A DNA stretch of 64,000 bases, taken from the IMG/VR virus record IMGVR_UViG_3300031420_000399; one strand, written 5' to 3'. The notes below the pieces were generated by a model that was not told the DNA's origin, did not search any database, and saw only the letters and a list, made by a program, of their open reading frames with translations. The position numbers were made by a program, and so were the translations under genes. Every line of letters starts with the position of its first letter. Within the stretch, counting starts at the first letter, position 1. The DNA comes from a virus (Duplodnaviria > Heunggongvirae > Uroviricota > Caudoviricetes). Positions 643 through 32,563 of this stretch are shown one piece after another.

Positions 643-672
643 TTGCGCCTTTTGCTGATGCTGTGATAGAGT
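643..672 (+). promoter_or_regulatory. promoter (family): TTGCGC-18-tgaTAGAGT
   Basis: drives the sRNA-like unit; no ORF follows. Confidence 0.5.
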
Positions 673-686
673 GTTCTTGCAGGCAC

Positions 687-747
687 CTTGAGGTGGCTAC
701 TTTTATTTGGAAAACGATCGCTGTCTCGCCTTCCCTGCACTTGAACG
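687..747 (+). repeat. 60-nt direct repeat copy A (CCTTGAGGTGGCTACT...GTCTCGCCTTCCCTG), about 80 percent identical to copy B
   Basis: 15-nt identical core CTTGAGGTGGCTACT at 687-701 and 955-969, then similar tails. Confidence 0.6.
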
Positions 748-790
748 CCCCGGACTCAGACCATCGAGTCCGGGGCTTCTCCCATTTTCG
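748..790 (+). terminator. intrinsic terminator: 10-bp stem CCCCGGACTC/GAGTCCGGGG, loop agaccatc, tail cttctcccatttt
   Basis: ends the sRNA-like unit. Confidence 0.55.
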
Positions 791-807: not shown

Positions 808-884
808 ATCAACCCAGGAGGGTTGATAGCGGCTAAATCAACCCAGGAGCGTTGATAGTCTGAGATCAATCTCCTAGCATTGAT
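808..884 (+). promoter_or_regulatory. three adjacent imperfect palindromes with ATCAA...TTGAT half-sites (candidate operator cluster)
   Basis: ATCAACCCaggagGGTTGATAG (808-829), ATCAACCCaggagCGTTGATAG (838-859), ATCAATctcctagcATTGAT (865-884); 25-100 nt upstream of promoter B. Confidence 0.5.
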
Positions 885-908: not shown

Positions 909-938
909 TTGACAGCTGCCTGCATCCCATGTTAGGGT
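909..938 (+). promoter_or_regulatory. promoter: TTGACA-18-tgtTAGGGT for the TerD-domain gene
   Basis: perfect -35; extended -10. Confidence 0.55.
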
Positions 939-954
939 GGATTCTGTCAGGCCC

Positions 955-1013
955 CTTGAGGTGGCTACTCACTCCTTATTGAACCCGCCGTCTCGCCTTT
1001 CCTGACCTTAGCT
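955..1013 (+). repeat. 60-nt direct repeat copy B forming the 5' leader of the TerD-domain gene
   Basis: lies between promoter B (909-938) and ATG 1040. Confidence 0.6.
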
Positions 1014-1039
1014 TTTTACCCGAAGGGAAACACCACCAC

Positions 1040-3184
1040 ATGGCTACCATTTCAGCCGCCCTCCGTCAGTCCGCTCTCCGTCGCGGCATCCTCGTCGAGA
1101 ACTTCTCCGGGAACAGCCCCGCCAGTGAGGTCGTGCGCTACGCCGCCGTCCTCGAGCTCGCCAACCTGGGCTTCCTCGTGCAGCCCGGTGACCTCAACGG
1201 CTTCTCGGCGGGCGCTTTGAGCTCCGCCATCGACAGCGCCCGCAAGATCATCGGCGCCGATCGGGACATGACCCCGATCTACCCGGGCTTCCCGAAGCAG
1301 GTCGAGGAGCTCTCCACGCTGCAGCTCCTCATGGAGCAGATCCTCCACTACTGGACTGCAGGCGCCTTCCTTCCGAACCACCCCGCAGAGGTCCGCGAGG
1401 GGCTGCCGCTGGAGGACATGCTGCGCAGTGGCCGGAAGCTCCAGCTCCTGTCCGCGGATGTCGCCCTGGAGCGACTCCTCAGCGAGCTCGTCAAGGCTCC
1501 CGTTGCGCTCTCCTCGGATGACCGGGAGCTCCTCACCGAGCTCACCAAGGCGGTCTACGGCGAGAACTTCCACCGGACCATCAGTACCTCTGACCTCGTG
1601 CGCAGCTCCACCAACGGTGAGAACATCCAGGTCTTCGCCGAGGCACTCCGGGATCATGCCAGCACGCTTGTCCACAGCCGGGATGACTACTTCTCTGCGC
1701 TGACCTTCGGTGTCCGCAACAGCGATCACCTCCTGCGGCTGATCCTGTCCTTCTACGGCGCTCCCGCAGCAGACCGCTGGGTCGAGAACTACGAGCTCGC
1801 CGTGGGCACTCTGGCCGACCGGCACTTCCGGGCAGTTCGTTTCTCGAGCGTTCCTCGCTACCAGCGTCAGCTCATCGTGGACGCCCTGGGTAAGCTCACC
1901 GAGGGTTACCGGGCCGACCGGCTCGTGACCCGTCAGAACCTCTGGCGCCGCGTCTTCAAGGGCCTCCACCCCTACGACCTGAAGCTCACGGTTGAGTCGA
2001 AGCGGGCTCTGGACATCGTCCACAGCAACATCGACTACCGGACCCTGAACTCGACCATCGAGCAGGCCCTGGAGGACCGGAAGGTCTCCGAGGCCGTAGA
2101 GCTCCTCGCTGAGCACCAGCCGGGTAATCTCCTCCGGCGCCTCGTGGCCATCCTTCGGCTCACCAAGAAGAAGGCAGACGCCAAGGTCCTCGCGAAGCGA
2201 GTTGCTGAGGTCGGCTCCAGGGCTACGCTCTCCACGCTGATCTCCTCCTACAACGGCGTCCTCGGCGCCAACGATGAGCACGCTCGGGTGAACCGGGTTG
2301 CGGGGCTCAACAACACGATGCTCGATCGAGGTGCCGTCGAGAAGATCGACGCGAACTTCCAGGCTGAGGTCCTCGAGGCTCTGGACCAGGCAATCATCGC
2401 TGCCCTCAAGGCAAAGGGAGCTCCTGTTGCGCCCGTAGGTGTCCTGGGAGACGCATCTGTGCCCCTGGTTCGCCGGGATGCTGCGAGCTCGGATCGAATC
2501 CTCGACCGGGGCGCTGAGCTCGGCCTCGTGGGTGAGGGCGATGTGCTCCGGCTCTTCGGCCACTGGAACAACAACATGGACCAGGGAAGCTACATGGACA
2601 TCGGAGCCGTCGTCCTCGACGAGGACTTCAACGAGATCTCCGTGAGCACCTGGAACTCCTGGAACTACGCCCGGAACTGGAGCACCTACTCCGGCGACAA
2701 GCTGGTCTACCCCGGAGACTCGGCAGCTGAGTTCGTGGATGTGAAGATCGAGGCGCTCAAGCAGAACCTCAAGGGTGCTCGCTGGGTAGCCATGACCGTG
2801 CAGTCCTGGGCCGGTTGGCCCATGGCAGATGTGGACTTCATCGCTGGAGCCATGCTCCGGCAGAAGGCCGGCGATCAGAAGGGTGAGGTCTTTGACGCTC
2901 GCTCCGTGACCACCGCCTTCAAGCCCACCACGAAGTCCACGCAGTCCGTGCCCTTCGCCGTGAACCTGGAGACGGGTAAGATCGTCTGGCTCGACTCTTC
3001 CAACGGTTCCACGGGTTCGGGTAACTCTGCCTCCAACGATGGCACTGTCGGCTCCATCGTCTACGACGAGGCTGCCCGGCCGAAGCTCTCCATGGGGCGC
3101 CTCGCCGAGCTCTGGGCCTCCGCCCACGGTGTCGAGACGGTTCAGGAGCCCGTAGACCGAGACGCAATCCTCGGACTTCTGTAG
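1040..3184 (+). CDS. large protein with C-terminal TerD-like domain (N-terminal 500 aa unassigned)
   Basis: 714-aa ORF; C-terminal block (LFGHWNNN, DIGAVVLDEDFNEI, YSGDKLVYPGDSAAEFVDVKIEAL, ARWVAMTVQSW) follows the TerD motif order; promoter 909-938 upstream. Confidence 0.7.
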   Translation: MATISAALRQSALRRGILVENFSGNSPASEVVRYAAVLELANLGFLVQPGDLNGFSAGALSSAIDSARKIIGADRDMTPIYPGFPKQVEELSTLQLLMEQILHYWTAGAFLPNHPAEVREGLPLEDMLRSGRKLQLLSADVALERLLSELVKAPVALSSDDRELLTELTKAVYGENFHRTISTSDLVRSSTNGENIQVFAEALRDHASTLVHSRDDYFSALTFGVRNSDHLLRLILSFYGAPAADRWVENYELAVGTLADRHFRAVRFSSVPRYQRQLIVDALGKLTEGYRADRLVTRQNLWRRVFKGLHPYDLKLTVESKRALDIVHSNIDYRTLNSTIEQALEDRKVSEAVELLAEHQPGNLLRRLVAILRLTKKKADAKVLAKRVAEVGSRATLSTLISSYNGVLGANDEHARVNRVAGLNNTMLDRGAVEKIDANFQAEVLEALDQAIIAALKAKGAPVAPVGVLGDASVPLVRRDAASSDRILDRGAELGLVGEGDVLRLFGHWNNNMDQGSYMDIGAVVLDEDFNEISVSTWNSWNYARNWSTYSGDKLVYPGDSAAEFVDVKIEALKQNLKGARWVAMTVQSWAGWPMADVDFIAGAMLRQKAGDQKGEVFDARSVTTAFKPTTKSTQSVPFAVNLETGKIVWLDSSNGSTGSGNSASNDGTVGSIVYDEAARPKLSMGRLAELWASAHGVETVQEPVDRDAILGLL

Positions 3185-3188
3185 GATC

Positions 3189-3225
3189 AGGCCGGCGGCA
3201 AACTGAAGTCAGCTGCCGCCGGCCT
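3189..3225 (+). terminator. 12-bp perfect hairpin AGGCCGGCGGCA/TGCCGCCGGCCT (no U-tract) after the TerD-domain gene
   Basis: inverted repeat. Confidence 0.4.
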
Positions 3226-3237
3226 CACAGTCCTACC

Positions 3238-3819
3238 ATGGCCATCACCGAAGACCTAGGGAAAGCTACCACTATGACCGTTCGACAGTCACTGCGCTTC
3301 AGCACCGTTCTCGGGGATTGGTCCGACGATGGCCACGGAAAGACTCGTACGGTCGAGGTCGAGGTCTTCACTGATGACGACTCCGTGGAGCTCACAGCTG
3401 ATCTCATCCAGGAGAACTACGCTGCCAACGCTGCCAGGCTCGGCTTCAGCCTCGGTGCGCTATGGGAGGAATACGAGCAGTCCTCGATCTTCGCAGCGCA
3501 TGCTCAGGCAATTCAGCGGGAGCTCGGCGCGCTCTACTATGGGGACAGCTCCCTCATCGCGAAGCACCCAGATGTGGCTATCTTCAACATCGAAGAGCTC
3601 CCCAAGGGTACGAAGTTCGGCTTCGGTGCATTCCATCTTCAAGAAGGGTGGAACGGCGACTTTGCCCTCGACGAGGAGCTCAATCTGGTGCTCTTCATCA
3701 TCCTGCAGGGAATTGCGAGAGTCGGCTGGAAGAAAGTCGATCCTGCGCCTCTCCTCTTTGGCGGTTACAGCGCTCTCGTGGAGCCCCGTCAACATGTGGG
3801 CTACGGGCTGTTCTACTGA
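3238..3819 (+). CDS. hypothetical protein (193 aa)
   Basis: ORF follows the hairpin at 3189-3225; overlapping alternative-frame ORFs are low-complexity. Confidence 0.55.
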   Translation: MAITEDLGKATTMTVRQSLRFSTVLGDWSDDGHGKTRTVEVEVFTDDDSVELTADLIQENYAANAARLGFSLGALWEEYEQSSIFAAHAQAIQRELGALYYGDSSLIAKHPDVAIFNIEELPKGTKFGFGAFHLQEGWNGDFALDEELNLVLFIILQGIARVGWKKVDPAPLLFGGYSALVEPRQHVGYGLFY

Positions 3820-4637: not shown

Positions 4638-5117
4638 ATGAACAGCTTCCAGTACCCCGCCGCAGTGGCAGGCCGCGCAGAGCTCCTCAAGTTCTCCTAT
4701 GTGGCCCTCGCCATCGGTGCAGCTGAGCTCGCCCCCGAGCTCGCGGCCCTGGAGTCCATCCTCGGCGATGACTACGAAGAGCTGACCCGCAACCGACGGC
4801 TTCGGGACGGTGGCTCCGACTTTCACGCCACCATCGTGCTCCCCAAGGAGTTCAGGACGCTCCGCAAGAGCGCATCTGGTGGTCGCATCGAGATCCCTTC
4901 GAAGGAGCTCGAACTGGAGATCCTCGGCATCGGCACCGCAATTAGCGAGGCGTCCCAGACCTGGTTCGCCATCGCCCGCTCTGAGGCCGTTGTTGCCTAC
5001 CGGAAGCGCCTGGGGCTCCCCTCCCACGATCTCCACATCACCCTGGCCTTCGAGGCCGCAGGCGATGTCCATGGTGTCCCCAAGGATGCCAGCACCCTTC
5101 TGACCACCACCCGCTAG
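4638..5117 (+). CDS. hypothetical protein (159 aa)
   Basis: leaderless ATG 6 nt after tgTAAGGT (4626-4631). Confidence 0.6.
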   Translation: MNSFQYPAAVAGRAELLKFSYVALAIGAAELAPELAALESILGDDYEELTRNRRLRDGGSDFHATIVLPKEFRTLRKSASGGRIEIPSKELELEILGIGTAISEASQTWFAIARSEAVVAYRKRLGLPSHDLHITLAFEAAGDVHGVPKDASTLLTTTR

Positions 5118-5502: not shown

Positions 5503-6213
5503 ATGACCAACAAGCGCATCCGCAGCACAAAGCGAACCATCGACAAGCTCGGCGTTGCCTTCGCCTCGATCATGGTGATCGGCCTCGTTCTCAGTGGCTG
5601 TTCCATGGAGAACGGCGGAGACGCCAAGTCCACTGCCACCACCGATGTCGCGGACTCCCAGTCGGTGCTCAAGAAGCTCGAATCTGCTGACATCATCGAG
5701 GCAAAGAAGGCAGTCTTCAGCTTCGGAGACAAGTGGACGATCACTGCTGACGGCGAGGAGATCGGCGAGATCAAGGGTCAGCCGATTTACTCCATCGGTG
5801 ATACCTACTCCCTGTTCTCTCCGGCCGGTAACCTCGTTGCCAGTGAGGCGGAGGGCTTCCGGGTTGTCAACCACAGCGCGGGGCTTTACGACTACAACAA
5901 CAAGAAGCGCGGTGAGATCCAGGAGCAGTTCTCCATGTTCCTCGCTGAGTACAAGATCAAGGACGCCGAGGACAAGACCGTCGGCACGGCGAAGCAGAAG
6001 TTCAGCCTCACCATGAACTTCGACCTCGAGGGCAAGCATGGGGACGCCGAGTACACGATCTCCAAGGCCGCCTTCTCCATGGGTTCCAAGGTCACCATCG
6101 AGGCCCAGAGCAAGGATCGCTCGGTGGATGCTGTGGATGCACTCTGGCTCGCAGTGATCGCCTCTGAGGTAGAGGACGCCAAGAGCGACGACAGCAACAA
6201 GAAAAACCGCTAG
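5503..6213 (+). CDS. lipoprotein (236 aa)
   Basis: signal peptide ending in lipobox LSGC; leaderless ATG 6 nt after tgTAGGAT (5491-5496). Confidence 0.65.
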   Translation: MTNKRIRSTKRTIDKLGVAFASIMVIGLVLSGCSMENGGDAKSTATTDVADSQSVLKKLESADIIEAKKAVFSFGDKWTITADGEEIGEIKGQPIYSIGDTYSLFSPAGNLVASEAEGFRVVNHSAGLYDYNNKKRGEIQEQFSMFLAEYKIKDAEDKTVGTAKQKFSLTMNFDLEGKHGDAEYTISKAAFSMGSKVTIEAQSKDRSVDAVDALWLAVIASEVEDAKSDDSNKKNR

Positions 6214-29891: not shown

Positions 29892-31397
29892 ATGGCATCA
29901 CGACAGAGTTCTCGCTACGACCTACCCCACGGCTCCAAGCCCAACCGAGGGCGCATCCTGCTCTCCATCGGAGCTTCCCTCCTGCTCTCCATCGTCCTCA
30001 CGGTGGGCTTCAACGCCTTCAGTGCGAGCTTTGCCGGAGCCTCCGGCCTGAGTGGGCAGCCAGTTGCCGCATCTGCTGAGCCCAACGGACTCGTGGATGT
30101 GGTCTTCGACGGCGCAGAGGTGATCAGCTCCGAGGATCGACTCGCCATCAACGCGGCTGCTCGAACGATCTTCGAGGACTATGGTGTGGCCATCTCCGTG
30201 GGCACCACCAACAGCACCGGTGGCAAGTCCATCGAGGATTGGGCCAAGGAGCAGGCGGAAGCCCACGGCGGCGGATCGGCTGAGCTCAACAACGGACTCT
30301 TCTATGGCATCGACATGGGATCCCGGCAGTACTCGGTGGTCAAGGGCACGGGCTACGCCAGCATTCCGGACAGTGAGCTCGACTCCATCCTGGCAAGCTC
30401 CTTCGTGCCGCAGCTGAAAGAGGGCCACTACGCAGATGCTGTCATCGAGTCCGCCAAGGCCTTCGGTGAGCGCGCCAAGAACGGTCCCGCTCAGCCTCAG
30501 GAATCCTCTACCGGCTTCAGCGATGAGCAGCTCCAGGGCATCGGCGCCTTCTTCAAGTACGCTGGTATCGCCGTGGGTGGAGGGATCGTCCTCTTCGGCG
30601 GCGCTTTCCTCATCCGTCGTCAGCTCCGCATCCGCTACGAGCAGGAGCAGGAAGCCCTACGAGCTGAGGCTGCTCGCGTCAAGAGAGAGAAGGAGAACCG
30701 GCGCATCGATGCTGTACTCTCCCTGAAGGAAGGTCAGTGGAAGGAGTTCGCCAAGCTCCCCAACGAGGAAGCGCGTATCACCTGGCTCAAGGAGAAAAGT
30801 GTCTACAGCAAGGCCTTCCTTGGGGAGTACGACTGGGAAGACGAGTCACTCCTCGAGGCCAACATCATCGACTACCACTTCAGTGAGCTCCAGGACTGGC
30901 ACCACCCATCTTCCGCCGCCTTCGACAGCTCGAGCTCTGTGAATCAGCAGCTCAAGGAGACAGCGGAACGCCGGAAGCGCGAGGAAAAGGCCCGGGTCGC
31001 CGCAGAGAAGAAGCGCGCAGAGGAGGAGCTCGTTCGCAGGGGCGCCAAGAGCTTCTGGAAGGGGCTTTCTAAGTCCGAGCGGGCTGAGTACTCGAAGCTG
31101 AAGTCTGACCGGGAGCGCAGGGATTGGACCACTCGCAGGACCCTCCAGGATGCCTCTGACTACAGCCGCCGGCAGGATGGATCCAACTTCTTCGGGCTCA
31201 ACCCTGTCTTGGCCATCGCCGCCCTCACGGGGCTTGCCCAGAGCGACGAGCGCTCGAGCCGGAGTTCTTCCTCGAGCTCATCCTATGGCTCATCTTCCTC
31301 GTCGTCCACGAACTACAGTGGCTCATCGAGCTACGACTCTTCGAGCATGTTCGGAGGCGGAAGCTTCGATGGAGGCAGCTCCAGCGGGAGCTTCTGA
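29892..31397 (+). CDS. TPM-domain membrane protein with coiled coil and Gly/Ser-rich tail (501 aa)
   Basis: leaderless ATG 6 nt after tgTAGGAT (29880-29885); TM helix, TPM-like region, second TM helix, coiled coil, SSSSSSSYGSSSSS...GGGSFDGGSSSGSF tail. Confidence 0.65.
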   Translation: MASRQSSRYDLPHGSKPNRGRILLSIGASLLLSIVLTVGFNAFSASFAGASGLSGQPVAASAEPNGLVDVVFDGAEVISSEDRLAINAAARTIFEDYGVAISVGTTNSTGGKSIEDWAKEQAEAHGGGSAELNNGLFYGIDMGSRQYSVVKGTGYASIPDSELDSILASSFVPQLKEGHYADAVIESAKAFGERAKNGPAQPQESSTGFSDEQLQGIGAFFKYAGIAVGGGIVLFGGAFLIRRQLRIRYEQEQEALRAEAARVKREKENRRIDAVLSLKEGQWKEFAKLPNEEARITWLKEKSVYSKAFLGEYDWEDESLLEANIIDYHFSELQDWHHPSSAAFDSSSSVNQQLKETAERRKREEKARVAAEKKRAEEELVRRGAKSFWKGLSKSERAEYSKLKSDRERRDWTTRRTLQDASDYSRRQDGSNFFGLNPVLAIAALTGLAQSDERSSRSSSSSSSYGSSSSSSTNYSGSSSYDSSSMFGGGSFDGGSSSGSF

Positions 31398-31437
31398 GCA
31401 CTAGACTTGCAGCCTGGAAGAGAGGATCCCGGAGAAG

Positions 31438-31466
31438 TTGACAGGGTGCTCTCCTCCATGTAAGGT
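31438..31466 (+). promoter_or_regulatory. promoter: TTGACA-17-tgTAAGGT (ATG 31511)
   Basis: perfect -35. Confidence 0.6.
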
Positions 31467-31510
31467 TTCTACTACATCGTTCACCACACCCTAGAAAGGG
31501 AATTCCCACC

Positions 31511-32563
31511 ATGGGTTCTGTCATCGGAGTGATTTTCCTCCTCGTCCTCGTCTTCGGAGGTCTTGTGACCTTCGCCACCCTCTCCAAGAAGCGTCGGGCC
31601 ACCGACAAGGAGATCGCTGAGGGTCGCAAGCTCGTCGACAGCGGCCGCCGGGGCTACGACGCCGAGCCGAAGCTCACGGATGGTGCCATCAAGCGCCTTC
31701 AGATGAGCTCCTCGATCTACAACGGTAGCCGCTGGGCCGCCCTCGGCGTTGCGGTCCTCGCGCTGATCATCGCTGTCACCATGTCCACGACCACCGTCTC
31801 GGCCAAGAATGTCGGCGTGGCCGTCAACTTCGGCAAGGTCTCGCAGCAGACCCTGAGCCCGGGCCTCCACTTCAAGGCTCCCTGGACCAAGGTCATCGAG
31901 ATCGACGGCACCATCCAGACCGACCAGTACGCTGGCGACAGCTGCATCAAGGTCACCATCGGCGACGGTAGCCAGGCCTGTGCGAAGATCACCAACCGCT
32001 GGCAGATCAACCCGGAGAACGCCGCCTCGATCTACGAGCAGCACCGTTCGGATGACCCGACTCAGTCCTTCCGGGCCGCCACCATCAGCACGCAGCTCGA
32101 GCAGGCCATCAGCGAGACCCTGGGTAAGTACAACCCGATCTCGAACCTGAAGGTCGTCGGCGGTTCCGATGACGCCACCCAGGTCTCCTTCGTTCCCGAC
32201 TACGACAAGCTGTCGAAGGAGATCGAGGACAACATGAAGGCCCGCCTCGATAAGGCTGACCAGGCTGAGATCGTGGGCATCACCTTCTCCCACCTGGACC
32301 TCTCGGACAACACCCAGAAGAAGATCAACGACTACATCGCCGCTGTCGGTGAGACCCGGATCGCCCTCCAGCAGAAGGAGACCGCTGCTGCTCAGGCTGC
32401 TGCCAACAAGGAGCTCTCCGCCTCGGTGAGCAACGACCCCAATGTGCTCGTCTCGCGCTGCCTCGACATCCTCAAGGACTCGTCGCAGAATGGCTACAAG
32501 CTCCCCGCGGGCTTCAGCTGCTGGCCTGGCGACAACGGCACCATCGTGGTCCCCAAGGGCTAA
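31511..32563 (+). CDS. SPFH/band-7 family protein (350 aa)
   Basis: N-terminal TM helix plus SPFH-like core; TTGACA/tgTAAGGT promoter 31438-31466; SD GAAAGGGAA; terminator 32586-32623. Confidence 0.7.
   Translation: MGSVIGVIFLLVLVFGGLVTFATLSKKRRATDKEIAEGRKLVDSGRRGYDAEPKLTDGAIKRLQMSSSIYNGSRWAALGVAVLALIIAVTMSTTTVSAKNVGVAVNFGKVSQQTLSPGLHFKAPWTKVIEIDGTIQTDQYAGDSCIKVTIGDGSQACAKITNRWQINPENAASIYEQHRSDDPTQSFRAATISTQLEQAISETLGKYNPISNLKVVGGSDDATQVSFVPDYDKLSKEIEDNMKARLDKADQAEIVGITFSHLDLSDNTQKKINDYIAAVGETRIALQQKETAAAQAAANKELSASVSNDPNVLVSRCLDILKDSSQNGYKLPAGFSCWPGDNGTIVVPKG

What the first reader, a model, noticed from the sequence alone, without database searches (positions are those of the whole stretch)
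1040..3184. 714-aa protein fusing an unassigned 500-aa N-terminal region to a TerD-like domain
TerD/TerZ/TerE proteins are normally about 190-aa standalone stress proteins. Here a TerD-like domain (LFGHWNNN, DIGAVVLDEDF, YSGDKLVYPGD, EFVDVKIEAL, ARWVAMTV) ends a much larger protein that is otherwise unrecognisable to me. TerD-domain fusions are little characterised.
Basis: partly seen in the sequence, partly recalled or inferred. Interest (0 to 1): 0.6.

Follow-up and report, generated by a model that had tools for sequence, protein, structure and literature searches.

The report
Helical protein ending in divergent TerD domain
The 714-residue protein is real and does end in a highly diverged TerD-type metal-binding domain, but it is one member of a large, uncharacterised family found on big phages and plasmids, whose helical front half most resembles the RNA-binding ring of Ro60.

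Summary

This is not a one-off fusion. At least 2,113 protein clusters share the ~700-aa architecture (PHROG 33734). It is a RING-less sister of NCBIfam NF041916, and RefSeq already names relatives 'TerD family protein'. No Ter partner genes lie in the 64 kb.

The parts
1040..3184 (+). Complete CDS: 714 aa, no cysteine, no TM-like segment. Member of PHROG 33734 and RING-less relative of NCBIfam NF041916.
1040..2449 (+). N-terminal module (aa 1-470). It comprises a small alpha/beta lobe (aa 1-72), a conserved low-confidence loop, then about 20 helices (aa 135-460). There is no Pfam family. The best structural match is the Ro60/TROVE helical-repeat ring.
1259..1429 (+). Conserved motif loop (aa 74-130): P79-x-Y81-x-x-F84-P85-x-Q87-V88 ... 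H103-Y104. F84, P85 and Y104 are each present in 135 of 137 representatives, yet pLDDT is below 50. This is the position where SCO0854-family relatives carry a C3HC4 RING insertion.
2498..3004 (+). Divergent TerD-like beta-sandwich (aa ~487-655). Near-invariant residues are R504, W509, D520, S551-G552-D553, E564, D567 and D652. D520, D553 and E564 align with TerD Ca1-site residues D42, D78 and E89. Y518 replaces D40. The GDGDD acidic run (Ca2 ligand D88) is lost.
3005..3181 (+). C-terminal tail (aa 656-714): two helices plus a strand, confidently modelled (pLDDT 83-94) and conserved within the close subfamily. No assignment.
909..938 (+). Promoter-like site P2: TTGACA (909-914), 18-nt spacer, TAGGGT (933-938). 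Conserved in two related elements.
   Evidence: read from sequence
942..1039 (+). 5' leader of the gene. It holds a second copy (942-1009) of the 674-742 element with the stem UGAGGUGGC/GCCGUCUCG, then the RBS GAAGGGA (1022-1028).
   Evidence: (D4, D7)
808..884 (.). Three operator-like palindromes: ATCAACCC-N4-GGGTTGAT at 808-827 and 837-856, and ATCAAT-N8-ATTGAT at 865-884. They occur nowhere else in the 64 kb and are conserved in related loci.
   Evidence: (D8)
643..789 (+). Possible small terminated transcript. It has a promoter-like site P1 (TTGCGC 643-648, 18-nt spacer, TAGAGT 667-672), the first leader copy (674-742), and a G+C hairpin (747-776) followed by a T-rich tail. One compensatory stem change is seen in L026.
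3189..3225 (+). Perfect 12-bp G+C hairpin 5 nt after the stop codon. The 3180-3240 stretch around it folds at -37.8 kcal/mol. It is a likely terminator without a T-run, which suggests a monocistronic unit.
   Evidence: (I11)

Best explanation
The gene encodes a soluble, cysteine-free, roughly 79-kDa two-module protein. It belongs to a widespread but uncharacterised family carried mainly by large phages and large plasmids.

Shown here:
- The C-terminal module (aa ~487-655) is a highly diverged TerD beta-sandwich.
- Its near-invariant residues D520, S551-G552-D553 and E564 align with TerD's Ca1 site. The acidic run that carries the Ca2 ligands is lost, and D40 is replaced by Tyr in this clade.
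- The N-terminal 470 aa form a helical-repeat module with a strongly conserved but flexible loop (PxYPxFPxQV...HY). Relatives carry a RING finger at that position.
- The whole ~700-aa architecture is fixed across more than 2,000 protein clusters.
- The gene appears to be monocistronic, with its own promoter-like site, operator-like palindromes and a terminator hairpin.

Inferred:
- The TerD pocket binds one divalent cation (Ca2+-type) or a small acidic-pocket ligand. This gates or positions the N-terminal module, which is the business end and binds a macromolecule.
- That macromolecule is most likely RNA or an RNP, because the module's best structural match is the TROVE ring of Ro60, a protein that also ends in a metal-binding domain (vWA).
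- The supposed role is in a stress or conflict response that helps the element cope with RNA damage during infection or carriage.

It is not part of a classical Ter (tellurite-resistance) operon.
For: TerD module:
- hhalign gives 96.8% probability, E 3e-10, aligning query residues ~487-599 with TerD positions 8-131. Controls give 0.1-0.2%.
- A TerD HMM built from 10 genuine phage TerDs hits 111 of 150 family representatives, in all but a few rows at the same region.
- Pfam TerD is hit by 12 of 69 diverse members.
- The top two PDB sequence hits of the family profile are TerDs, in the same register.

Site conservation: D520 in 135/137, SGD in at least 135/137, E564 in 135/137, D567 in 133/137. 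The TerD Ca1/Ca2 residue numbers come from PMC8779313, which cites Pan et al. 2011.

Family:
- 2,113 clusters at E<=1e-3, nearly all ~700 aa.
- PHROG 33734 at 6e-57.
- NF041916 is matched by 69 of 69 members.
- Phage homologues include WXIN, Weasels2, XacN1, LpeD and RcXuper. Plasmid homologues are listed.

N-terminal module:
- In the Foldseek search of BFVD, the first named hit whose alignment takes in the helical part, outside the family's own members, is a TROVE-domain protein (E 1.9e-3, probability 0.99).

RNA-related context:
- A 2H-SAK RNA-repair phosphoesterase gene lies about 1.5 kb downstream, and this is syntenic in two related elements.
- HAD_SAK_2 genes lie near homologues.
- The Variovorax relative sits behind a perfect sigma-54 promoter, divergent from an operon ending in rtcR. 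RtcR/sigma-54 is the regulator of the rsr-Y RNA-rtcBA RNA-repair operon (PMC7790460, PMC4201824).
- An RNB RNase lies near one Streptomyces relative and an RNA ligase near a Vibrio relative.

Soluble and RING-less: 0 Cys, maximum Kyte-Doolittle 19-residue average 1.48.
Against: - Pfam TerD does not detect this protein. The close subfamily alone reaches only 11.5% in hhalign.
- Metal binding is inferred from alignment only. Two Ca1 ligands are changed in this clade (D40 to Y518, N79 to K554).
- There is no sequence-level support for TROVE. It was never hit in Pfam scans, and no Ro60 appears in PDB profile searches.
- No Y-RNA or other Rfam family was found in the window or in five related loci, nor in the gene's upstream region even at E<=10.
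- Gene neighbourhoods of relatives are heterogeneous, with no universal partner.
- The rtcR/sigma-54 link rests on one lineage of near-identical Variovorax plasmids and on a relative only ~26% identical.
- A Deinococcus relative sits 1.8 kb from a TerB gene, which favours a Ter-type role instead.
Confidence: 0.5

Rival explanations
1. It is a genuine Ter-system stress protein. The TerD domain binds Ca2+ and acts with TerB, TerC or TerY-type partners to give tellurite, colicin or phage resistance (for example superinfection exclusion by the phage). The N-terminal region would be only an adaptor.
For: - TerD fold and homology.
- Standalone TerD genes are common in phages, with 126 phage records found. 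They have been proposed to serve in competition with superinfecting phages (PMC7824862).
- A Deinococcus relative has a TerB-family gene 1.8 kb away.
- RefSeq names relatives 'TerD family protein'.
Against: - None of 77 window ORFs matches TerB, TerC, TerD, TelA or vWA at E<=1e-3.
- No Ter genes are seen near the WXIN, Mycolicibacterium, Bacillus or Clostridium homologues, or in the metagenomic loci.
- The GDGDD acidic run is lost family-wide, and D40 is replaced by Tyr in this clade.
- Two thirds of the protein, with its own invariant residues, is unrelated to any Ter component.
- The protein fails Pfam TerD.
Confidence: 0.15
2. It is a RING-less adaptor or decoy of a ubiquitin-like or vWA-MoxR conflict system. 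The relatives would be E3-like enzymes, and this version would bind the same target without ligase activity.
For: - All 69 tested members match NF041916, a RING-domain family.
- Streptomyces and Variovorax relatives carry a C3HC4-type insertion exactly at the query's conserved loop.
- Two Streptomyces plasmids have vWA plus AAA ATPase genes (with WGR in one) 4-6 kb away.
Against: - The query has no cysteine at all and scores 173 bits against a 600-bit cut-off.
- No E1, E2, Ubl, JAB, vWA or MoxR gene is seen in the window beyond one generic AAA gene about 41 kb away.
- The vWA/AAA genes in Streptomyces are on the opposite strand, several genes away, and are absent from the Kitasatospora and S. 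anthocyanicus loci.
- No PADLOC defence model matches.
Confidence: 0.12
3. It is a purely structural or scaffolding protein of the mobile element, for example a virion, nucleoid or partition component. The TerD sandwich would be only a stable fold, and the Ro60 similarity generic alpha-solenoid resemblance.
For: - Alpha-solenoid matches of similar Z to many unrelated proteins.
- No catalytic family detected.
- No conserved operon partner.
Against: - The best-conserved residues cluster in an acidic pocket homologous to a known metal site, not in a hydrophobic core.
- The gene also occurs on plasmids, so it is not virion-specific.
- No phage structural genes lie nearby.
- The dedicated operator-like palindromes suggest conditional expression.
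Confidence: 0.1

Closest known systems
TerD / TerZ / TerE stress proteins (Pfam PF02342; K. pneumoniae TerD 2KXT, S. coelicolor SCO6318 2QZ7)
   Same: - Detectable profile-profile homology over about 110 columns.
- Equivalents of Ca1-site residues D42, D78 and E89 are near-invariant in the family.
   Different: - TerD proteins are standalone and about 190 aa. Here the domain is the C-terminal quarter of a 714-aa protein.
- The protein fails the Pfam model.
- The GDN(R/L)TG(E/A)GDGDDE signature is reduced to SGD...E, so the Ca2-site ligands are lost, and D40 is Tyr in this clade.
- There is no ter operon context.
NCBIfam NF041916, MXAN_6230/SCO0854 family RING domain-containing protein
   Same: Same overall plan of a helical N-terminal module followed by a TerD-like C-terminal module. 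It shares the PxYxxFP...HY motif, and all 69 tested members match it (up to 7.6e-140). The query matches at 1e-50.
   Different: The query scores 173 bits against a 600-bit cut-off. It has no cysteine and lacks the C3HC4 insertion that defines the family, carrying a flexible loop at aa ~105-130 in its place. It is a RING-less sister group, not a member.
PHROG 33734, including the hypothetical protein WPH57718.1 of Mycobacterium phage WXIN (Omegavirus)
   Same: Full-length homology: 45% identity over 98% of the length to WXIN, and PHROG match at E 6e-57. Homologues also occur in Rhodococcus phage Weasels2, Xanthomonas phage XacN1, Lactobacillus phage LpeD, Rhodobacter phage RcXuper and Campylobacter phages.
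   Different: These carry no functional annotation, only 'hypothetical', 'cytoplasmic protein' or 'putative tellurium resistant like protein'. The neighbouring genes are not shared with the window.
Ro60 / Rsr (TROVE helical-repeat ring plus vWA domain)
   Same: - Both proteins are a helical-repeat module followed by a C-terminal metal-binding domain.
- One relative occupies an rtcR/sigma-54-controlled position like rsr (PMC7790460).
- A small structured transcript may lie just 5' of the gene, as Y RNAs lie beside rsr (PMC4201824).
   Different: - There is no sequence-level similarity.
- The C-terminal domain is TerD, not vWA.
- No Y-RNA or YrlA match was found.
- Similarity of this size among alpha-solenoids can be convergent.

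Membership tests
TerD domain (Pfam PF02342) | Match to the Pfam TerD HMM at or above the gathering score (25.3 bits) | tested here: not met
   The query gives 0 Pfam hits at E<=1. Distant family members do pass or approach the threshold: P0190 scores 26.6 bits and P0223 21.8 bits, and 12 of 69 members hit at E<=0.01.
TerD domain (Pfam PF02342) | TerD beta-sandwich fold | tested here: met
   [not shown]
TerD domain (Pfam PF02342) | Remote sequence homology to genuine TerD proteins | tested here: met
   hhalign of the family C-terminal alignment against 10 phage TerDs gives 96.8% probability, E 3e-10. Controls give 0.1-0.2%, and the query's own subfamily alone gives 11.5%, P 0.0026, in the same register. 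The TerD HMM hits 111 of 150 representatives, in nearly all at the same region.
TerD domain (Pfam PF02342) | Two Ca2+ sites: the DxD motif plus GDN(R/L)TG(E/A)GDGDDE. Ca1 uses residues 40, 41, 42, 78, 79 and 89. Ca2 uses residues 29, 82, 84 and 88. | tested here: inconclusive
   By alignment, D42, D78 and E89 correspond to D520, D553 and E564, which are near-invariant. D40 corresponds to Y518 (Asp in 84 of 137 relatives), N79 to K554, and D88 to A563. The acidic run is lost. Actual metal binding cannot be tested here.
Ter stress-response system (terZABCDEF / TerY-type) | Linkage to TerB, TerC, TelA or TerY/TerF (vWA) genes | tested here: not met
   None of 77 window ORFs matches any of these at E<=1e-3. 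Among 14 loci of relatives examined, only a Deinococcus plasmid has a TerB-family gene nearby.
NCBIfam NF041916 (MXAN_6230/SCO0854 RING family) | Score at or above the curated cut-off (600 bits) | tested here: not met
   172.9 bits, E 1e-50, with the best stretch covering profile positions 372-752 of 842.
NCBIfam NF041916 (MXAN_6230/SCO0854 RING family) | C3HC4 RING-type Cys/His cluster inserted after the PxYxxFP...HY motif | tested here: not met
   The query has 0 Cys. The Streptomyces member carries CVLCG...CAHLVCRSC...CPIC at the equivalent position.
NCBIfam NF041916 (MXAN_6230/SCO0854 RING family) | Helical N-terminal module followed by a TerD-like C-terminal module | tested here: met
   The family HMM aligns to both halves of the Streptomyces and Variovorax RING proteins, and the TerD HMM hits their C-terminal parts.
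PHROG 33734 | Significant match to the PHROG profile | tested here: met
   E 6.3e-57, 194.6 bits, query residues 264-667 against profile positions 275-694 of 764.
Ro60 / TROVE (Pfam PF05731) | Sequence match to the TROVE model | tested here: not met
   No TROVE hit in the query or in 69 relatives. No Ro60 appears in PDB profile searches with A1, A3 or A4.
Ro60 / TROVE (Pfam PF05731) | HEAT-like helical-repeat ring fold | tested here: inconclusive
   [not shown]
Ro60 / TROVE (Pfam PF05731) | C-terminal vWA/MIDAS domain and an adjacent Y RNA | tested here: not met
   The C-terminal domain is TerD-like, not vWA. There is no Rfam match in the window or in five related loci, nor in the upstream region at E<=10.

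The most novel reading that the evidence does not exclude
The whole family, including its RING-bearing branch, would be a previously unrecognised Ro60-like ribonucleoprotein module in which the vWA domain is replaced by a TerD metal or ligand sensor. It would be deployed by large phages and plasmids, and in some bacteria under RtcR/sigma-54 control, in the response to RNA damage. The conserved ~100-nt terminated transcript just upstream of the gene, whose stem-loop is duplicated in the gene's own 5' leader, would be its non-coding RNA partner or a decoy regulator, analogous to a Y RNA.
Probability: 0.15. Interest if true: 0.75.

Novelty: new member of a known kind. Interest (0 to 1): 0.45.

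Why it matters
TerD domains are widespread and bind calcium, yet their molecular role remains unclear. This family has more than 2,000 clusters on phages, megaplasmids and some chromosomes. In it, a pared-down TerD site is permanently coupled to a large helical module, which gives a defined system for asking what a TerD domain senses and what it controls.

If the Ro60/TROVE resemblance and the rtcR link hold, the family would connect Ter-type sensing with RNA-damage responses and add a new class of phage-encoded RNA-handling proteins.

There is also a practical point. The standard Pfam check gives a false negative here, so such proteins stay 'hypothetical' in phage genomes.

Tried and rejected
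- Pfam, PADLOC and PDB sequence searches on the single protein gave no TerD and no defence family. The only hit was a spurious diguanylate-cyclase match at E 0.002.
- A single-domain phmmer search with a relative's TerD region against the PDB gave nothing useful.
- A megablast of the first 12 kb against phages found no match.
- The genome-contig scan found only 2 short MAG contigs and the IMG/VR scan only 1 locus, so no neighbourhood statistics were possible.
- A second large protein search with an N-terminal-only profile returned the same ~700-aa family and no alternative architectures.
- AFDB Foldseek was unavailable.
- A conserved-neighbour search by tblastn across seven loci found nothing shared except a lipoprotein-like gene (window 5503-6213) that lies near two homologues.
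- Pfam on the Variovorax and Streptomyces neighbour genes was uninformative.
- Rfam found no family, including Y RNA, in the window or five related loci at gathering thresholds, or in the upstream region at E<=10.
- A sigma-54 motif search across all loci found one further exact hit (L018 8177-8192), on the opposite strand inside the Streptomyces RING-family gene; judged not relevant. There is none in the loci of the query's closest relatives (L026, L027); the window itself was not scanned.
- Three Aravind-group papers that might describe the RING-TerD family could not be retrieved. Searches for SCO0854 and MXAN_6230 returned no paper.
- The 691-aa antisense ORF at 1052-3127 was rejected as a high-GC shadow frame.
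Full report
**1. The observation**

An ATG-initiated ORF runs from 1040 to 3184 on the + strand and encodes 714 aa. Its GC content by codon position is 0.66/0.43/0.83, the signature of a real gene in a ~60% GC genome. The 691-aa ORF on the opposite strand (1052..3127) is the usual shadow frame.

The protein has no cysteine and no TM-like segment.

There are 232 hits in the 90%-clustered database. The 120 listed are full-length (701-757 aa, 50-100% identical), and none has a precomputed Pfam domain.

**2. Is the C-terminal part TerD?**

Pfam finds nothing in this protein at E<=1. PDB sequence searches with the protein or with a profile of its close relatives find no TerD either.

Four independent lines nevertheless show a diverged TerD domain.

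(b) Profile-profile comparison. I fetched ten annotated TerD genes from phage genomes. I then compared their alignment with the family's C-terminal alignment.
- hhalign gives 96.8% probability, E 3e-10, with query residues ~487-599 aligned to TerD positions 8-131.
- Controls give 0.1-0.2%. These were the N-terminal alignment against TerD, and either alignment reversed.
- The query's own subfamily alone gives only 11.5% (P 0.0026), in the same register. This explains the Pfam false negative.

(c) Transitivity.
- A profile search finds 2,113 representative clusters.
- Of 69 diverse members, 12 hit Pfam TerD at E<=0.01. One of them, P0190, is above the gathering score. No other Pfam family recurs.
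- My own TerD HMM hits 111 of 150 representatives, in all but a few rows at the same family region.

(d) Annotation. RefSeq names relatives on Bacillus, Clostridium, Deinococcus and Vibrio plasmids 'TerD family protein'.

The domain spans about residues 487-655 and is followed by a confidently modelled 59-aa tail.

**3. What is kept of TerD**

K. pneumoniae TerD binds two Ca2+ ions. Site Ca1 uses residues 40, 41, 42, 78, 79 and 89. Site Ca2 uses residues 29, 82, 84 and 88 (PMC8779313 citing Pan et al. 2011).

By alignment:
- D42, D78 and E89 correspond to D520, D553 and E564.
- These are among the best-conserved residues of the whole protein. D520 is present in 135/137 representatives, S-G-D in at least 135/137, and E564 in 135/137. 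D567 (133/137) and D652 (136/137) are also conserved.
- D40 is Asp in 84 of 137 relatives but Tyr (Y518) in the query's clade.
- The acidic GDGDD run is replaced by xGAxE throughout the family, so the Ca2 ligands are lost.

I infer one retained acidic metal or ligand site. Binding itself is untested.

**4. The family**

The ~700-aa architecture is fixed. The protein matches PHROG 33734 (6e-57) and NCBIfam NF041916, 'MXAN_6230/SCO0854 family RING domain-containing protein'. The NCBIfam match is 1e-50 but only 173 bits against a 600-bit cut-off. All 69 diverse members match that model.

Comparison with annotated Streptomyces and Variovorax members shows where the RING sits. Their C3HC4 cluster is an insertion just after the conserved PxYxxFP...HY motif. 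That is exactly where the query has a strongly conserved loop modelled with low confidence, about residues 100-130. With no cysteine at all, the query is a RING-less sister, not a member.

Cultured carriers include the following:
- Mycobacterium phage WXIN (45% identity, full length)
- Rhodococcus phage Weasels2
- Xanthomonas phage XacN1
- Lactobacillus phage LpeD
- Rhodobacter phage RcXuper
- Campylobacter phages
- Plasmids of Mycolicibacterium (39% identity), Bacillus, Clostridium, Streptomyces, Variovorax, Deinococcus and Vibrio

The close subfamily is nearly absent from species-representative genomes and from IMG/VR. It does occur on metagenomic contigs of up to 828 kb that are full of hypothetical genes.

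**5. The N-terminal 470 aa**

No Pfam, NCBIfam or PDB sequence relationship was found beyond the family itself.

A separate model built from a more diverse alignment has pLDDT 81 and pTM 0.73. It is a small alpha/beta lobe, then the flexible conserved loop, then about 20 helices.
- The same two Ro60 entries already ranked 4th and 5th for the full-length model.
- In a Foldseek search of viral models, a TROVE-domain protein is the first named hit whose alignment takes in the helical part, outside the family's own members (E 1.9e-3, probability 0.99).

This is consistent but modest evidence. It has no sequence support, so I treat a TROVE-like fold as a hypothesis.

**6. Context**

No Ter partner (TerB, TerC, TelA or vWA) is found among 77 ORFs of the window. 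No phage structural gene or tRNA is seen either. The window is an accessory-gene region containing DUF808, a fatty-acid desaturase, a cation efflux protein, TPM plus SPFH, MazG, SprT-like, an AAA ATPase, and 2H-SAK and HAD-SAK domain genes.

Immediate neighbours are not conserved across homologous loci. The exception is the two closest elements, where gene order is kept, including a 2H-SAK RNA-repair phosphoesterase gene about 1.5 kb downstream.

Relatives sit in varied settings:
- Variovorax: the RING homologue lies 57 bp downstream of a perfect sigma-54 promoter (TGGCACGGGCATTGCA). This is the only exact match in 15 kb. The gene is divergent from an operon ending in rtcR. RtcR/sigma-54 controls the rsr-Y RNA-rtcBA RNA-repair operon in Salmonella (PMC7790460).
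- Two Streptomyces plasmids: vWA and AAA ATPase genes lie nearby in both, with WGR and RNB-ribonuclease genes as well in one of them.
- Vibrio: an RNA-ligase gene is nearby.
- Deinococcus: a TerB-family gene is nearby.
- Kitasatospora, S. anthocyanicus, Bacillus, Clostridium and Mycolicibacterium: nothing suggestive.

There is an RNA-metabolism flavour, but it is anecdotal.

**7. Expression signals**

The 484-bp upstream spacer is conserved in the two related elements. Reading 5' to 3', it contains:
- A promoter-like site P1 (TTGCGC, 18-nt spacer, TAGAGT; 643-672).
- A ~100-nt unit with a stem (UGAGGUGGC/GCUGUCUCG) and a G+C hairpin plus T-rich tail (747-789). The hairpin shows one compensatory change.
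- Three palindromes sharing ATCAA...TTGAT half-sites (808-884), which occur nowhere else in the 64 kb.
- A good TTGACA, 18-nt spacer, TAGGGT promoter (909-938).
- A second copy of the stem-loop element (942-1009) forming the gene's 5' leader.

A perfect 12-bp hairpin follows the stop codon; the stretch around it folds at -37.8 kcal/mol. The gene therefore looks monocistronic and specifically regulated. No Rfam family matches the upstream region even at E<=10.

**8. Interpretation**

Established here:
- The gene is real.
- It has a divergent TerD C-terminal domain with one conserved acidic site.
- The architecture is fixed across a large family.
- The protein is RING-less.
- There is no Ter operon.

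Inferred:
- The TerD pocket senses a divalent cation or small ligand and controls a macromolecule-binding helical module.
- The best, but weak, guess for that macromolecule is RNA. This rests on the Ro60 resemblance, the rtcR link in one relative and the SAK-domain neighbours.

The rivals remain open: a Ter-type stress or exclusion protein, a RING-less adaptor of a conjugation or vWA-MoxR system, and a plain scaffold.

**9. Novelty and score**

The family is already in PHROGs. Its RING branch is in NCBIfam, and RefSeq labels some members TerD. This makes the protein a new member of a known, uncharacterised kind, not a new fusion.

The additions here are the Pfam false negative, the mapping of the conserved site, the position of the RING insertion, the Ro60-like N-terminal module and the rtcR/sigma-54 observation. 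Together they give testable leads. Interest is moderate, at 0.45.

Noticed in passing
window 643-789: A promoter-like site (TTGCGC, 18-nt spacer, TAGAGT) is followed by a ~100-nt conserved unit that ends in a G+C hairpin with a T-rich tail. This may be a small terminated transcript just 5' of the gene. It is conserved in L026 and L027, with one compensatory stem change. No Rfam match.
   Followed up: partly
window 674-742 and 942-1009: A ~68-nt element is duplicated 268 nt apart. The second copy forms the target gene's 5' leader. Both copies can form the stem UGAGGUGGC/GC(U/C)GUCUCG. The core motif CCTTGAGGTGGCTACT occurs only at these two places in the 64 kb.
   Followed up: partly
window 808-827, 837-856, 865-884: Three operator-like palindromes (ATCAACCC-N4-GGGTTGAT twice, ATCAAT-N8-ATTGAT once) lie between the hairpin and the TTGACA/TAGGGT promoter. 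They are unique in the window and conserved in related loci. The binding factor is unknown.
   Followed up: partly
window 3189-3225: A perfect 12-bp G+C inverted repeat lies 5 nt after the stop codon, with no T-run. The 3180-3240 stretch around it folds at -37.8 kcal/mol. It is a likely factor-independent terminator of the actinobacterial type.
   Followed up: partly
window 4638-5117: A 159-aa protein carries a 2H-SAK ('Swiss Army Knife' RNA-repair 2H phosphoesterase) domain (3e-14). It is syntenic downstream of the target gene in L026 and L027. A HAD_SAK_2 domain gene also occurs somewhere in the window, and near homologues in L002 and L003.
   Followed up: partly
L021 6074-6089 (Variovorax sp. 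SRS16 plasmid 2): A perfect sigma-54 promoter consensus (TGGCACGGGCATTGCA) lies 57 bp upstream of the RING-bearing homologue. The gene is divergent from a DUF6283-hyp-hyp-rtcR operon, so the homologue sits where RtcR-controlled RNA-repair genes usually lie.
   Followed up: partly
L018 13064-15239 and L022 10683-17182 (Streptomyces plasmids): vWA-domain and AAA ATPase genes recur 4-6 kb from the RING-family gene on the opposite strand in two plasmids. L022 also has WGR-domain and RNB-ribonuclease genes in the same block.
   Followed up: no
L002 and L004 (metagenomic contigs of 828 kb and 765 kb): Homologues lie on very large contigs made up almost wholly of short hypothetical genes, with NMN transporter, HIT, R2K ATP-grasp, GmrSD_C and TnpB/IS605 genes nearby. 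These could be giant phages, megaplasmids or small genomes. The nature of the elements was not resolved.
   Followed up: no
window 29892-32563: A TPM-domain protein (501 aa) and an SPFH/Band 7 protein (350 aa) are adjacent. The wider window also holds DUF808, fatty-acid desaturase, cation-efflux, MazG, SprT-like, META and DUF4241 genes. It has no tRNA and no recognisable virion gene in 64 kb.
   Followed up: no
window 1052-3127 (- strand): A 691-aa ORF lies antisense to the target gene. tblastn finds 'homologues' of it only because it shadows the conserved sense frame. This is a high-GC artefact, not a gene.
   Followed up: yes
L028 11268-11687 (Deinococcus sp. KNUC1210 plasmid): A TerB-family gene lies 1.8 kb from a 915-aa 'TerD family protein' relative. 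This is the only Ter-system neighbour seen among the 14 loci of relatives examined.
   Followed up: no
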